A stretch of 46,345 nucleotides of DNA from a phage: sequence record LC918680.1; one strand, given 5' to 3'. Below, in pieces: positions 37,058 through 40,380 of the stretch (position 1 is its first letter; every line of letters begins with the position of its first letter). The notes below the pieces were generated by a model, which searched no databases, was not told where the DNA came from, and saw nothing but the letters and a program-made list of their open reading frames with translations. The translations under genes and the position numbers were made by a program.

Positions 37058-37070
37058 TGGGGCTTTTTTT
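37043..37070. terminator. bidirectional intrinsic terminator after spanin
   Basis: AAAAAA + GCCCC-GTAAT-GGGGC + TTTTTTT. Confidence 0.8.
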
Positions 37071-37404
37071 ATGCAAACAATTCGTCATCACTCATGTTGG
37101 CTATGTTCATCATCTCACTGACGTAATCACTGGACCTACCTTCAAGGCTCATGAATTCAAACTGAAATGGTCGCTTAATTGAACCCTTACACCAGTACAC
37201 TCCATTAACTCCATCAAGATACCCAGCCGTAAGCATTCTCGCCATAAACTCCTTCGAGCAACTTGAGGCAAAATACCTTTCATCAACCCCGGCAGCCTTG
37301 GCCATCCTTGCGCAATCCTTGTGCTTATAGATGAATCTTGCCAGGTGCTGGCGGTTGAAGTTCTTGTATCCTTCGCAGAAATTATACAGGTCGAGCAGGT
37401 ACAT
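37069..37404 (-). CDS. hypothetical protein
   Basis: 111-aa ORF convergent with lysis cassette. Confidence 0.5.
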   Translation of the reverse strand: MYLLDLYNFCEGYKNFNRQHLARFIYKHKDCARMAKAAGVDERYFASSCSKEFMARMLTAGYLDGVNGVYWCKGSIKRPFQFEFMSLEGRSSDYVSEMMNIANMSDDELFA

Positions 37405-37407
37405 AAA

Positions 37408-38991
37408 TTACCCCAGCAATAGTGGATTAATGTAAATTTTATCACCAATCAGGCATGTGTAGTTTTTCTCATCAAGCATAGGAATCAAGTGGTCCTTAAT
37501 GCGAGTCATAATTCCAGCCTGAGCTTCAAAAGGTTTAACCTTGCGTGCAGCCTCATACAACGAGCGAACACCAACAACACCTTTACCATTCTTGCCCTGC
37601 TTAATCAGGATATCAACCAGCTTGTTCATCTCGGCATTGTCACCAGCATGACCAGCAGCACTAGCGGATGATAAATAAGTCTTGCTTAGTTCGTTGAAAA
37701 TCATAACCGCTTCCTGCATTGTATCCAGTTCAATCTCTCTTGACTTTTGAGGGCTGGATCCGGCTGGTGAGAACCAGTTACGAATTACGTGCAGAACAGA
37801 AGCGATGCGGATTGCTTGCTTATCAAACTTACCAAGAGCACCGCGCAACATTGTGTGAGAATACTTGCCACCATCACCAAGATGAGGCTCCATCTCTTGA
37901 CGAGCGCGGTTAAGGTAACGCATTGATGACGCGCTTACAGTAAGTTTCACTTCAACTTCATTCATAATCTCATGAACAAGACGGAAATAGTCTGCTTTCA
38001 GGCCGTCATCAATAGCCTCATAGGTTGAATCACCATTTTCATCAACAAATACACGTTCGCCAAGAAATGATTTTTCACGCACCAGAAGGAAACGCTCAGA
38101 TACACCAATACCACGCGCACCAGCATTCATAATGGCATTGATTGTTTCATCCTGAGCAATTACGGAGATGCATCCCATAGCCACAAAGCTCATGTTATTT
38201 TCTGCGTTCGCACGGGCAATTGACACATTACCTGCATCCCATGCTTTCAGCACGAGCTCGCTGTTCGTTTTCTTCGAGCCATCACCGTAAGTCATGCCTA
38301 ACAGTGAGTTGACGCTAGTAGCCTCATCAGAGATTACCGCAAAATTACCCTGGCGATTGTTGATTCGCGCAAGACCTTCCGGAGTAGTATCGGAGACAGG
38401 GAATACTATATCGCATAGCTTCTCGAGCTTCTCCTCTAAATCCTCCTTCTCCTCAAAAAGTGAAGCCATTTCAGAAGGTGATTTCTCCTGCTTCATCTCT
38501 TTAGCCAGAGCGGACAGTTTAGCCATAATCTTTTTTCGATCACGTTTACGTACTTCATTCAACCGCTCAGTCTCAGCAATCATCGGCGCAATTGATAGCG
38601 AGTTAATGGCTGATTTACCAGTTGAAGGCGGCTGACTTGTTACCACGTACAAAGATGTTGGCTGTTGGGTTCCATGATACTCGACAGTAAAACGCCCAAG
38701 CATTGCAGCAGAAACACAACCAAGAAAGTGCATGTAAACTGACGACTCAGGGAACTGAACCGAGCGAGCGATATTAGCCGATAGCTTACCAACAACATCA
38801 ATATCATTACCGAGTGAGATTACTGGATACTTATCATTACCTGTATCAATCTCGACAGGTGCTTTCCAGAACGATTGAGAATGTCGATAGCCATTGGCAT
38901 TAATAGCCACGCGAAGCGGTGGTAGGTTTTCATTGGCAGCGATTGCCATAACCTGCTCAACAGATAGTTTATCTTCGTTGAAATCAAACAT
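37408..38991 (-). CDS. P-loop NTPase (DUF3987-like), putative replication-associated ATPase
   Basis: Walker A SQPPSTGKS and Walker B-like AVISDEAT; 527 aa; boundary motif and conserved leader upstream. Confidence 0.55.
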   Translation of the reverse strand: MFDFNEDKLSVEQVMAIAANENLPPLRVAINANGYRHSQSFWKAPVEIDTGNDKYPVISLGNDIDVVGKLSANIARSVQFPESSVYMHFLGCVSAAMLGRFTVEYHGTQQPTSLYVVTSQPPSTGKSAINSLSIAPMIAETERLNEVRKRDRKKIMAKLSALAKEMKQEKSPSEMASLFEEKEDLEEKLEKLCDIVFPVSDTTPEGLARINNRQGNFAVISDEATSVNSLLGMTYGDGSKKTNSELVLKAWDAGNVSIARANAENNMSFVAMGCISVIAQDETINAIMNAGARGIGVSERFLLVREKSFLGERVFVDENGDSTYEAIDDGLKADYFRLVHEIMNEVEVKLTVSASSMRYLNRARQEMEPHLGDGGKYSHTMLRGALGKFDKQAIRIASVLHVIRNWFSPAGSSPQKSREIELDTMQEAVMIFNELSKTYLSSASAAGHAGDNAEMNKLVDILIKQGKNGKGVVGVRSLYEAARKVKPFEAQAGIMTRIKDHLIPMLDEKNYTCLIGDKIYINPLLLG

Positions 38992-39048
38992 TACTTCTCT
39001 CCGTGTTGTTATGAGCGGCCATTATATCAATAGCCGCTTATAATGCAT

Positions 39049-39063
39049 TATCAATTAGTGCTA
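39049..39063 (-). promoter_or_regulatory. boundary motif copy 11
   Basis: - strand TAGCACTAATTGATA upstream of DUF3987-like gene. Confidence 0.5.
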
Positions 39064-39221
39064 TTTAGTAAGATGCAATCTATCTTGTAGTAGTCAAAGT
39101 GATTTTCTGAAGATATTTCTTTGTTATATTTAAACTCCTGTGCTTTGAATTCTTCATCGAAAGCGGCAATCACTTCGCTTCCATCATAGTGTGTGCAACC
39201 ACTTACAATGTATAATTTCAT
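39051..39221 (-). CDS. hypothetical small protein
   Basis: 56-aa ORF, start overlaps upstream stop (ATGA); C-terminus LNSTN encoded by boundary motif; below track cutoff. Confidence 0.4.
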   Translation of the reverse strand: MKLYIVSGCTHYDGSEVIAAFDEEFKAQEFKYNKEISSENHFDYYKIDCILLNSTN

Positions 39222-39607
39222 TTGTATTGAGCCTCAAAGTGGTAAGTTTCACACAACGTATAAAAGCCAACATCTTCGCTGCGATATAGCTGCCAGGCGT
39301 TGCCATCTTCATCGTAAATGTATCCAGCTGACTGACCAAGTCCGCTATGCATGTTGACCTGGTATCGCTTACCTTCTTTGAAGTCTTTCTTAACGCCAGA
39401 CTTATGGTTAACCTTTGTGCAGTAAAGAGTTTTGGTTTTAATGTATTTTCCACGTTCTTCCAGGTTGATCCATTTGCCGTCTTTTTTGATTTGCTCAAAT
39501 TCAACTTCCTCAGCGACACCGTTAACCCACTGGTGAATCTTTTTAACGCGAGCTTTAAATAGCTTGTTGTCGTTGCTAATGAAATTTTTGGTTATCGTAG
39601 TAGTCAT
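39218..39607 (-). CDS. hypothetical protein
   Basis: 129-aa Lys-rich ORF. Confidence 0.5.
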   Translation of the reverse strand: MTTTITKNFISNDNKLFKARVKKIHQWVNGVAEEVEFEQIKKDGKWINLEERGKYIKTKTLYCTKVNHKSGVKKDFKEGKRYQVNMHSGLGQSAGYIYDEDGNAWQLYRSEDVGFYTLCETYHFEAQYK

Positions 39608-39768
39608 TATTTTAATCTCTTAGTTGTCAACATGAATTTGTTTGGTACTGATTTGCGCACAATACGCACAACAATCTTATCAAACTTCTGAACTAAACCG
39701 TAAATCTTACCATCTAGCGACGCCCTGAGAACCGCCTCTTCCATCTCGTCATAAAAGTTGTCGAACAT
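39607..39768 (-). CDS. hypothetical small protein
   Basis: Start placed at ATG 39768 after conserved CATCGAAACGAAAGAGAG leader (track start 39834 is TTG within the motif). Confidence 0.4.
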   Translation of the reverse strand: MFDNFYDEMEEAVLRASLDGKIYGLVQKFDKIVVRIVRKSVPNKFMLTTKRLK

Positions 39769-39827
39769 GATCTCTTGCTCTCTTTCGTTTCGATGGAGTA
39801 AATATACGCCATCCGTGGCGGTGAGTT

Positions 39828-39992
39828 TTAGCAATTAGTGCTATTTTTTCTGGCCTTCTCAATTGCCTTCAACATAATCTCGTGAGACTCAAGCAGGTCC
39901 TCGTTAAACCAGTCCCCGCAAGGCCAACCCTTTCCGCTGTAAGCACTTATGACTTCCAGATCGAAATAGTTTATCTCAGATGGTAAAAGCAT
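39828..39992 (-). CDS. hypothetical small protein
   Basis: 54-aa ORF; C-terminus KNSTNC encoded by boundary motif; start overlaps upstream stop; below track cutoff. Confidence 0.4.
   Translation of the reverse strand: MLLPSEINYFDLEVISAYSGKGWPCGDWFNEDLLESHEIMLKAIEKARKNSTNC
39829..39843 (-). promoter_or_regulatory. boundary motif copy 12
   Basis: - strand TAGCACTAATTGCTA perfect 6-3-6. Confidence 0.6.
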
Positions 39993-40195
39993 TATTCAAT
40001 CACCTTAAAAGTTGCGATGCCGTGGATGATTACGTAATCAAGGCATTTAAGCGCCTGGAACGTGTCGTGATGCTTGTGTGGACGTTCGCCGGTAACAAGG
40101 CACATATCATTTTTAAACTCGGTAGCGTTGTATTCAGAGCCCTTATTGAAGGCATCGTTAAAGTCTTTAATTACGTTCGTGCATAATAGTTTCAT
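39992..40195 (-). CDS. hypothetical protein
   Basis: 67-aa ORF. Confidence 0.5.
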   Translation of the reverse strand: MKLLCTNVIKDFNDAFNKGSEYNATEFKNDMCLVTGERPHKHHDTFQALKCLDYVIIHGIATFKVIE

Positions 40196-40380
40196 TTTAC
40201 TACCTCAAACTCTCCAGGGTGGATAACTAATGGCTTGGCTTTACCATCCATTATTACAACAGTTCCATTTTCGTGTTCCATGAATACCTCGTAAACACCT
40301 CCAGGTTCAAGGCCGTAGAATTCGTATTCGTCATCGTCAAACCCATCTGTCTTACTTAGCGCTATTATTTTTACCTTCAC
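40192..40380 (-). CDS. hypothetical protein
   Basis: GTG 40380 with SD GAGGAGG 5 nt upstream (track TTG start 40422 lacks RBS); first - strand gene leaving control region B. Confidence 0.5.
   Translation of the reverse strand: MKVKIIALSKTDGFDDDEYEFYGLEPGGVYEVFMEHENGTVVIMDGKAKPLVIHPGEFEVVK

What the first reader, a model, noticed from the sequence alone, without database searches (positions are those of the whole stretch)
37069..40380. Opposite-strand cluster headed by a 527-aa DUF3987-like P-loop ATPase with small unknown genes
Seven - strand ORFs lie between the lysis cassette and control region B, each separated by boundary motifs. The largest has Walker A (PPSTGKS) and Walker B-like (ISDEAT) motifs but no helicase motifs I recognise. 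The cluster is transcribed from control region B in the opposite direction to the early + strand genes. It may be a replication-initiation or host-takeover module; there is not enough evidence to call it a defence or anti-defence system.
Basis: partly seen in the sequence, partly recalled or inferred. Interest (0 to 1): 0.55.

Follow-up and report, generated by a model that had tools for sequence, protein, structure and literature searches.

The report
T1-like phage MCM-like replicative helicase module
This stretch is the leftward gene block of a T1/Rtp-like coliphage; its large gene encodes the family's conserved MCM-like (DUF3987) DNA helicase, most likely the phage's replication-fork helicase, so it is an ordinary, already annotated replication module and not a new system.

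The parts
37043..37069 (.). Bidirectional intrinsic terminator (AAAAAAGCCCC-ATTAC-GGGGCTTTTTT) shared by the converging spanin gene (+) and the 111-aa gene (-)
   Evidence: Terminator scan: 11-bp stem with 5 G-C pairs, T-runs on both strands. T1, Sin4 and Stevie annotate terminators at the same junction.
37069..37404 (-). g111 (T1 gp10 homologue, phrog_2794): small winged-helix protein with a disordered acidic tail carrying a nearly invariant SD(D/E)ELF motif. It starts 3 nt after the helicase stop codon. Proposed partner or adaptor of the helicase (inferred).
37408..38991 (-). g527 (T1 gp9 / Rtp67 homologue): DUF3987, MCM-like AAA+ (SF6) helicase with a C-terminal winged helix. Proposed replicative, possibly origin-binding, helicase.
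38611..38631 (-). Walker A / P-loop, PPSTGKS (residues 121-127)
   Evidence: P, P, S, G, K and S are invariant in 31 homologues.
38317..38334 (-). Walker B, ISDEAT (residues 220-225)
   Evidence: I, S and E are invariant; D is conserved in at least 70%.
38992..39065 (-). Repeat/-10 cassette directly upstream of the helicase gene: AATAGCACTAATTGATAA, then 21 nt containing a GCGGC/GCCGC dyad, an extended -10 TGATATAAT (39029-39021), an RBS (GGAGAG) and ATG 38991
   Evidence: Conserved in ES, JulesPiccard, Rtp and Stevie.
39051..39221 (-). g56: small DUF7336 protein, variable accessory gene. Its 3' end is formed by the repeat motif (product ends ...NSTN).
   Evidence: Pfam DUF7336 E = 1.3e-7. No homologue in any of the nine comparison loci.
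39218..39607 (-). g129 (T1 gp7 / Rtp69 homologue, phrog_2684): conserved protein of unknown fold. Its C-terminal ~73 aa are conserved family-wide. Third member of the conserved core.
   Evidence: PHROG E = 4e-50. tblastn hits in T1, Rtp, Sin4, Stevie, ES and JulesPiccard. Found in 824 phage records. No Pfam or PDB sequence match.
39607..39834 (-). g75 (phrog_5407). The mechanical ORF starts at TTG 39834, but the real start is more likely ATG 39768 (53 aa), 76 nt from the repeat. Variable accessory gene.
   Evidence: Homologues only in Rtp and JulesPiccard.
39769..39845 (-). Second internal repeat/-10 cassette: AATAGCACTAATTGCTAA, CGCCA/TGGCG dyad, TATATT, CCATCGAAACGAAA
39828..39992 (-). g54 (phrog_4548), variable accessory gene. 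Its product ends ...NSTNC because the repeat overlaps its 3' end.
39992..40195 (-). g67 (phrog_4448), variable accessory gene
40192..40380 (-). g62 (phrog_14327), first gene of the block. GTG start with a GGAGGG RBS. Variable accessory gene.
40381..40453 (-). First repeat/promoter cassette ('T-type' repeat AATAGCACTTTTTGCTAA, then AAGACA-17-TATAGT at 40436-40408)
26602..27525 (-). DnaG-type (zinc-ribbon) primase, the inferred functional partner of the helicase, about 10 kb away
   Evidence: Pfam Zn_Ribbon_Prim E = 1.8e-10. Syntenic with the 'DNA primase' annotations of T1 and JulesPiccard.

Best explanation
The 527-aa protein is the phage's own ring-type replicative DNA helicase of the DUF3987 family, a divergent MCM-like AAA+ (superfamily 6) motor with a C-terminal winged helix. 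T1-like phages encode no DNA polymerase. The inferred mechanism has three steps. First, the helicase assembles on phage DNA, possibly recognising a start site through its winged helix in the manner of other mobile-element initiator-helicases. Second, it unwinds the fork using ATP. Third, it works with the phage DnaG-type primase (26602-27525) and the host Pol III holoenzyme. Two family-wide neighbours probably act as accessory, loading or adaptor subunits: g129, and especially g111, a winged-helix protein with an acidic SD(D/E)ELF tail. The other five small ORFs are lineage-specific fillers of unknown role. The block is expressed from at least three repeat-associated -10 cassettes, one immediately upstream of the helicase gene, and ends at a bidirectional terminator.

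Shown here: family membership, fold, conserved catalytic motifs, domain fusions and gene neighbourhoods in relatives, and family-wide conservation.

Inferred: helicase activity of this particular protein, its role at the fork, origin binding, the partner roles of g111 and g129, promoter function of the cassettes, and use of host Pol III.
For: Family membership: Pfam DUF3987 E = 1.1e-40. PHROG 2373 'DNA helicase' E = 1e-253.

Motifs: Walker A, Walker B, IAQDE (putative sensor 1), S-E-R-F (MCM-type arginine finger) and RG..GK (putative sensor 2) are invariant or nearly invariant over 35-93% identity. The model shows a beta-hairpin between Walker B and the sensor 1 strand.

Fusions among relatives found with this protein's own profile: DnaG CHC2 zinc finger + DUF3987 (P0302), PriCT_2 + DUF3987 (P0388), DnaB N-terminal domain + DUF3987 (P0335).

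Gene context: Vibrio phage pYD38-B has DUF3987, then a Zn-ribbon primase, then one gene, then an SF2 helicase, then an exonuclease. Vibrio phage D81 has DUF3987, then an SF2 helicase, then further genes including exoVIII, AAA_24 and SSB.

Conservation: helicase in 922 phage records, g111 in 835, g129 in 824. The trio is present in T1, Rtp, Sin4 and Stevie.

No other candidate: no ORF in the window matches a DnaB-type helicase, and every ORF above 500 aa is accounted for as terL, tape measure, J-like tail tip, tail fibre, SF2 helicase or DUF3987.

Literature: DUF3987 proteins were predicted to be SF6 replicative helicases with a C-terminal wHTH, often next to or fused with primases (PMC4889955). 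A PriCT-DUF3987 protein unwinds DNA 5'-3' in a Walker A/B-dependent way and binds its primase-polymerase (PMC11724360). T1 and TLS lack a DNA polymerase gene (PMC11447400).
Against: No Drexlerviridae DUF3987 protein has been tested biochemically or genetically in any paper I could find.

In this window the primase is about 10 kb away, not adjacent.

The phage also encodes an SF2 helicase, which the TLS and TR1 papers treat as 'the' helicase.

There is no sequence-level match to Pfam MCM or to any solved structure.

The model shows no helix-2 insert and no MCM-type N-terminal OB/zinc domain, and it carries a long helical hairpin after Walker A that MCM lacks.

I recall, but could not retrieve, a 1980 J. 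Virol. paper titled 'requirement for host dna genes involved in elongation' for T1. If that requirement includes host dnaB, a pure fork-helicase role would be weakened.
Confidence: 0.78

Rival explanations
1. The protein is an origin-binding initiator or remodeller that opens phage DNA and recruits the host DnaB helicase, as lambda O/P or Cdc6/ORC-type AAA+ proteins do, and it is not the fork helicase itself.
For: Its C-terminal winged helix resembles ORC/Cdc6 winged helices. It is a stand-alone protein with a small N-terminal helical domain, and the primase is not adjacent in this phage. A conserved winged-helix partner, g111, follows it. My unverified recollection that T1 needs host elongation genes would fit this reading (one search failed to retrieve the source).
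Confidence: 0.12
2. The protein is a recombination or repair motor, a branch-migration helicase like ComM or RuvB, supporting the recombination-dependent concatemer formation that T1-like phages use for headful packaging.
Against: ComM scores far below MCM. The fusions are to primase and DnaB-N domains, not to recombination domains. Direct adjacency to a primase in pYD38-B points to priming-coupled unwinding.
Confidence: 0.06
3. The cluster is a host-takeover or anti-defence module, with the ATPase acting on host targets and the small proteins acting as inhibitors.
For: It lies beside a divergent control region. Five of the eight ORFs are tiny, variable and of unknown function, which is typical of early accessory genes.
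Against: No PADLOC model matches any of the eight proteins. The large protein and two neighbours are a strictly conserved core with replication-type fold, fusions and context. Nothing links the ATPase to host targets. This reading can hold at most for the five small variable ORFs.
Confidence: 0.04

Closest known systems
T1 gp9 / Rtp67 and their Drexlerviridae orthologues (RefSeq 'DNA helicase', BASEL 'putative helicase', 'DUF3987 domain-containing protein')
   Same: Orthologous: 97% identity to phage TR2, 92% to Rtp, 56% to T1. Same length, and same position between the lysis cassette and the large intergenic region, with the gp10-like gene directly downstream.
   Different: Nothing substantive. 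Only the set of small upstream ORFs differs. T1 has an HNH endonuclease gene immediately upstream, whereas this phage has a DUF7336 ORF followed by a repeat cassette.
AgaPH, the PriCT-DUF3987 helicase of a pAgo-carrying mobile element (PMC11724360)
   Same: Same Pfam family (DUF3987) with Walker A/B and a small C-terminal domain. It is the only member with demonstrated ATP/dATP-dependent 5'-3' unwinding and primase binding.
   Different: AgaPH has an N-terminal PriCT domain and is encoded next to an AEP primase-polymerase. The phage protein has a different short helical N-terminus, pairs by inference with a DnaG-type primase encoded 10 kb away, and I could not compare the two sequences directly.
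Archaeal/eukaryotic MCM (superfamily 6 replicative helicase)
   Different: Only 10-18% identity and no Pfam MCM hit. It has no N-terminal OB/zinc domain and no visible helix-2 insert, and it has an extra ~65-residue helical hairpin after Walker A. The one characterised DUF3987 helicase moves 5'-3', whereas MCM moves 3'-5'.
T7 gp4 and bacterial DnaB (primase-coupled hexameric helicases)
   Same: Functional analogy. Relatives of the phage protein carry a DnaG zinc finger or a DnaB N-terminal domain in front of the motor, which are the same modular layouts as gp4 and DnaB.
   Different: The motor is AAA+ (MCM-like), not RecA-like (SF4). There is no Pfam DnaB_C hit.
Cch (SCCmec) and the SaPI5 primase-helicase, replication initiator-helicases of mobile elements
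   Different: They are more distant than MCM itself. DUF927, the Pfam family whose staphylococcal island member is a demonstrated helicase (PMC5862659), is listed there separately from DUF3987. An origin next to the gene is not established for T1-like phages.

Membership tests
DUF3987 (Pfam PF13148) | Match to the family HMM above the curated gathering score | tested here: met
   140.5 bits against a cut-off of 27, E = 1.1e-40, covering profile positions 3-352 of 364. All 31 aligned homologues match.
DUF3987 (Pfam PF13148) | Conserved Walker A (GxxxxGKT/S-like) and Walker B (DExx) motifs | tested here: met
   PPSTGKS at 121-127 and ISDE at 220-223, invariant or nearly invariant in 31 homologues.
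DUF3987 (as described by Kazlauskas et al. 2016, PMC4889955) | [quoted passage not shown] | tested here: met
DUF3987 (as described by Kazlauskas et al. 2016, PMC4889955) | Association with an AEP or DnaG primase, by fusion or as the adjacent gene | tested here: inconclusive
   In this window the DnaG-type primase is about 10 kb away. Adjacency is seen in Vibrio phage pYD38-B, and fusions to a DnaG zinc finger or PriCT are seen in profile hits.
DUF3987 helicases (AgaPH, PMC11724360) | ATP-dependent 5'-3' DNA unwinding and oligomer formation | not testable with these tools
   Needs purified protein.
MCM family (Pfam PF00493) | Sequence match to the MCM HMM | tested here: not met
   No MCM hit at E <= 1 for any of 31 members. 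No solved MCM found by phmmer or hmmsearch.
MCM-like AAA+ fold (SF6) | AAA+ core whose closest solved structures are MCM proteins | tested here: met
MCM-like AAA+ fold (SF6) | Beta-hairpin before sensor 1, and an S-R-F-type arginine finger before beta-5 | tested here: met
   Strands 254-257 and 266-269 precede the sensor 1 strand 272-278 in the model. S-E-R-F has E and R invariant and S and F conserved in at least 90%. This rests on model secondary structure and motifs, not on coordinates.
MCM-like AAA+ fold (SF6) | Helix-2 insert beta-hairpin, and an N-terminal OB-fold/zinc domain | tested here: not met
   Only one uninterrupted helix (203-213) lies between beta-2 and the Walker B strand. The N-terminus is about 60 residues of short helices and coil. 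Judged from the DSSP string only.
DnaB-type (SF4, RecA-like) replicative helicase | DnaB_C / RecA-like motor domain | tested here: not met
   No such Pfam hit, and the fold is AAA+.
Known anti-phage defence systems (PADLOC-DB) | Match of any cluster protein to a defence-system model | tested here: not met
   0 families for all eight proteins at E <= 0.01.
T1-family 21/22-nt intergenic repeat (Stevie PMC4319613; TLS PMC11447400) | Consensus aaATAGCACnnnTTGnTAAAA, co-oriented with transcription, about 76 nt upstream of start codons | tested here: met
   19 copies in the window, three of them in this block. A -10-like hexamer lies 20-22 nt after the motif in most copies, and where a start codon was assigned (13 of 19 copies) it lies 70-82 nt from the 5' end of the motif.

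The most novel reading that the evidence does not exclude
The conserved trio g129 - DUF3987 helicase - g111 is a self-contained hybrid replisome core. In it, an archaeo-eukaryotic-type (MCM-like) motor is loaded and coupled to a bacterial DnaG-type primase and the host Pol III holoenzyme by two dedicated small subunits. g111's winged helix would bind DNA or the helicase, and its acidic SD(D/E)ELF tail would dock onto a replisome or SSB-tail-binding pocket. The 21-nt repeat cassette in front of the helicase gene would be a phage-specific promoter element that times its expression.
Probability: 0.2. Interest if true: 0.5.

Novelty: already known. Interest (0 to 1): 0.2.

Why it matters
The main value is better annotation. 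T1-like phages carry no DNA polymerase and only a few replication genes. Papers on T1-like genomes usually discuss only the primase and the SF2 helicase, yet the best candidate for the fork helicase is this family-wide MCM-like DUF3987 protein. Recognising that, together with its two conserved small partners, gives a concrete and cheap experimental entry point. It would show how a phage couples an MCM-like motor to a bacterial-type primase and to the host polymerase. It also flags a conserved core protein that host defence systems might sense. None of this changes the classification of the finding, which is an ordinary replication module.

Tried and rejected
Approaches that led nowhere:
- Sequence searches of the PDB with the single protein and with a 31-sequence profile gave only chance-level hits.
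- NCBIfam gave nothing.
- Pfam at E <= 1 on all 31 homologues gave no second family, including no MCM hit.
- PADLOC gave no defence match.
- Rfam on 36500-42000 gave only sub-threshold hits on the terminator hairpin.
- PDB profile searches for g111 and g129 gave nothing.
- hhalign of the g111 profile against the 119-aa protein downstream of the helicase in phage Pappous showed no relationship.
- Searches for classical T1 genetics, host dna-gene requirements, escape-mutant data and transcript-timing data for Drexlerviridae found nothing about this gene.

Ideas considered and rejected:
- A second copy of the helicase's C-terminal domain in this window. Close relatives show '2 places' in tblastn, but the window has none.
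- The repeat's TTGnTA as a canonical sigma-70 -35 element. Its spacing to the -10 hexamer is 22 nt, too long for that.
- Calling the 670-bp intergenic region an origin. It has three TTGCAATGAT copies and an AT-rich dyad region. However, the 10-mer count at up to 1 mismatch is not above chance genome-wide (15 of 100 shuffles reached it). In the T1 record the equivalent region spans the ends of the linear genome, so it may equally serve packaging or transcription control.
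Full report
WHAT THE WINDOW IS. The 46.3-kb window is a complete genome of a T1/Rtp-like siphovirus (Drexlerviridae, Braunvirinae). The region of interest is 91.6% identical at the DNA level to Escherichia phages ES and AN_ECEAS, and 80-88% identical to TR1-3, Rtp and the BASEL phage JulesPiccard. Comparison with the curated maps of JulesPiccard and T1, plus Pfam scans, gives this layout:
- terL at 1-1620, followed by structural genes.
- exoVIII and Erf at 21788-23480.
- Lateral tail fibre on the - strand at 23982-26516.
- A DnaG-type zinc-ribbon primase on the - strand at 26602-27525.
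- An HTH regulator.
- An SF2 helicase on the + strand at 28623-31757.
- The lysis cassette, ending at 37057.
- The - strand block of this finding.
- A 670-bp intergenic region.
- Small + strand genes, ending with terS.
No ORF above 500 aa is left unaccounted for, so there is no DNA polymerase. This agrees with what is stated for T1 and TLS (PMC11447400).

CHECKING THE OBSERVATION. The - strand block is real. It holds eight ORFs, not seven: 62 aa (GTG 40380 with a GGAGGG RBS), 67, 54, 75 (more likely 53 aa from ATG 39768), 129, 56, 527 and 111 aa. Most junctions are ATGA or TAATG overlaps or a 3-nt gap. The 527-aa gene is seventh in transcription order, so it does not head the cluster. The block ends at a strong bidirectional terminator (37043-37069) shared with the converging spanin gene.

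THE 'BOUNDARY MOTIFS'. These are real. AATAGCACnAATTG is strongly over-represented: 26 matches at up to 3 mismatches against 7.3 +/- 2.5 in shuffles, with 0 of 100 shuffles reaching 26. With the published consensus ATAGCACnnnTTGnTAA there are 19 copies in the window. All but one (33262, - strand) are co-oriented with the neighbouring genes. Most have a TATAAT-like hexamer 20-22 nt downstream. Where a start codon could be assigned (13 of 19 copies) it lies 70-82 nt from the 5' end of the motif, and a CATCGAAACGAAA-like element often sits in between. Three copies lie in this block:
- Upstream of g62 (40452), followed by AAGACA-17-TATAGT.
- Upstream of ATG 39768 (39844).
- Directly upstream of the helicase gene (39064), followed by an extended -10, TGATATAAT. 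This copy is conserved in ES, JulesPiccard, Rtp and Stevie.
These are the known 21/22-nt repeats of T1, TLS, Rtp and Stevie. Their role is explicitly stated to be unknown (PMC4319613; PMC11447400). The block is therefore probably not a single operon driven only from the intergenic control region.

THE 527-aa PROTEIN: MOTIFS AND DIFFERENCES FROM MCM. The following are invariant or nearly invariant: QPPSTGKS (Walker A), ISDE (Walker B), IAQDE at the end of beta-4 (putative sensor 1), S-E-R-F before beta-5 (the position and form of the MCM 'SRF' arginine finger) and RG..GK in the lid (putative sensor 2). The model has a beta-hairpin before the sensor 1 strand. It has no helix-2 insert and no MCM-type N-terminal OB/zinc domain, and it carries an extra, confidently modelled helical hairpin of about 65 residues after Walker A. 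The protein therefore works like an MCM-type AAA+ motor, but it is a member of DUF3987 and not of the MCM family proper.

EVIDENCE THAT THE MOTOR IS A REPLICATIVE HELICASE.
(i) A profile search of 1.84 billion representative proteins finds 6,052 relatives at E <= 1e-3 and 3,603 at E <= 1e-10. Among the long ones, the domain is fused behind a DnaG CHC2 zinc finger (P0302), a PriCT_2 primase domain (P0388) or the N-terminal domain of DnaB (P0335). These are the modular layouts of T7 gp4-like primase-helicases and of DnaB itself.
(ii) In Vibrio phage pYD38-B the order is DUF3987, Zn-ribbon primase, one further gene, SF2 helicase, exonuclease. In Vibrio phage D81 it is DUF3987, SF2 helicase and then further genes including exoVIII, AAA_24 and SSB. 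These are the same replication proteins that are dispersed in this window.
(iii) The gene is a family-wide core gene, present in 922 phage records, 898 of them covering at least 80% of the query.
(iv) Kazlauskas et al. classified phage DUF3987 proteins as divergent SF6 helicases with a C-terminal wHTH, often fused or adjacent to primases, and proposed them as replicative helicases (PMC4889955).
(v) A PriCT-DUF3987 protein (AgaPH) was shown to oligomerise, to unwind 5'-tailed and forked DNA in a Walker A/B-dependent way, and to bind its primase-polymerase (PMC11724360).

THE NEIGHBOURS. tblastn of the eight proteins against nine related loci shows that only g129 (T1 gp7), g527 (T1 gp9) and g111 (T1 gp10) are conserved across Braunvirinae, Tunavirinae, Webervirus and Tempevirinae. 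The other five ORFs are confined to close relatives or absent. g111 occurs in 835 phage records and g129 in 824, with the same host distribution as the helicase. g111 always follows the helicase within a few nucleotides. Its model has a confident winged-helix-like domain (residues 1-80) and a disordered tail, and the tail carries a nearly invariant SD(D/E)ELF motif. Acidic, aromatic-ended tails mediate contacts in other phage replisomes, which is my own recollection and was not tested here. I therefore propose g111 as a helicase adaptor or loader, as inference only. g129 has no detectable family or solved relative. g56 is a DUF7336 protein. None of the eight proteins matches a PADLOC defence model.

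RIVALS. An initiator-only role, recruiting host DnaB, is disfavoured. The ATPase core matches MCM rather than the ORC/Cdc6/DnaA clade, the ORC/Cdc6 matches cover only the winged helix, and the fusions are those of primase-helicases. It is not excluded, because no Drexlerviridae protein has been tested and I could not retrieve the classical work on T1's host dna-gene requirements. A recombination-motor role (ComM/RuvB-like) is possible but weaker. A host-takeover or anti-defence role has no support for the conserved trio and remains untested for the five small variable ORFs.

VERDICT. The finding is a real gene block, but an ordinary one: the conserved replication module of a T1-like phage plus variable small genes. 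The large gene is already annotated as 'DNA helicase', 'putative helicase' or 'DUF3987 protein' in many records. The modest added value is threefold. First, the fold-level confirmation of the MCM-like assignment. Second, the recognition of a conserved helicase-centred trio that includes a winged-helix partner with an acidic tail. Third, the observation that the helicase gene has its own repeat-associated -10 cassette. Interest is low (0.2) and the novelty class is 'already known'.

Noticed in passing
Whole window; 19 copies, e.g. + 1617, 8781, 22756, 32175, 35598, 41870, 42725, 44140; - 20185, 20934, 39064, 39844, 40452: The T1-family 21-nt repeat (ATAGCACnnnTTGnTAA) is the upstream part of a ~75-nt cassette of fixed geometry. 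A TATAAT-like hexamer sits 20-22 nt after the motif, often inside or next to a short dyad, followed by a CATCGAAACGAAA-like element, an RBS and a start codon 70-82 nt from the motif. The TTGnTA is 22 nt from the -10, too far for a canonical -35. That fits an UP-element-like or activator-dependent promoter better than a 'stoperator'. The literature lists the function as an open question (PMC11447400).
   Followed up: partly
window 28623-31757 (+); insert about 29088-30173: The SF2 helicase gene is interrupted in its DE-x-H box (...AIDE | CLTGDTMI ... VVAHN | CHMVD...) by an intein-like element. The N-terminal splicing part ends at a stop codon in ORF 28623-29432. A LAGLIDADG endonuclease ORF (29261-30115) lies in another frame. 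ORF 30048-31757 starts with the C-terminal splicing part. This looks like a 'fractured gene' with a split intein and a free-standing homing endonuclease, or else a frameshifted intein. The insert is found in only two other phage records, ES and AN_ECEAS, at 99.7% identity.
   Followed up: partly
window 40381-41053: The 670-bp intergenic region between the divergent gene blocks is conserved in Braunvirinae. It contains two ~26-nt direct repeats (AATCATTGCAAaTcCyGCAACAAT on the - strand) flanking a palindrome (ATTGCAT-TCG-ATGCAAT). It also contains an AT-rich dyad region (40727-40876) and a - strand TCTACA-17-TATAAT match at 40804-40776. In the T1 record the equivalent region spans the ends of the linear genome. 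It could serve as operator, pac or origin; this is unresolved.
   Followed up: partly
L002 (JulesPiccard MZ501087) 40684-41223, + strand; absent from the window: A 179-aa ORF (bas03_0065, phrog_7327) matches the helicase only over its N-terminal 42 residues (76% identity) and C-terminal 63 residues (54%, part of the winged-helix domain); no match to the ATPase core was found. It is encoded among the + strand genes just downstream of the DUF7174 gene. This 'motor-less' paralogue could compete for the helicase's partners or DNA site. Close relatives that show '2 places' in tblastn probably carry it.
   Followed up: partly
window 39828-39845, 39051-39065, 35597-35614: Because the repeat overlaps the 3' ends of upstream genes, three unrelated ORFs end in the same peptide...NSTNC (g54 and the 200-aa ORF 35012-35614) and ...NSTN (g56). 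This suggests the repeat also marks cassette boundaries where genes have been swapped.
   Followed up: partly
window 37069-37110 (C-terminus of g111): A nearly invariant acidic-hydrophobic peptide, MSD(D/E)ELF, lies at or near the C-terminus of the winged-helix protein g111, in a region modelled as disordered. It resembles the acidic, aromatic-ended tails that mediate replisome contacts; the resemblance is recalled from memory and was not tested.
   Followed up: partly
window 39607-39834: The mechanical 75-aa ORF starts at TTG 39834, inside the repeat motif. ATG 39768 (53 aa) lies 76 nt from the repeat with an AAGAGAG-type RBS and is the more likely start. The PHROG match begins at residue 18 of the long form, so relatives may differ.
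   Followed up: partly
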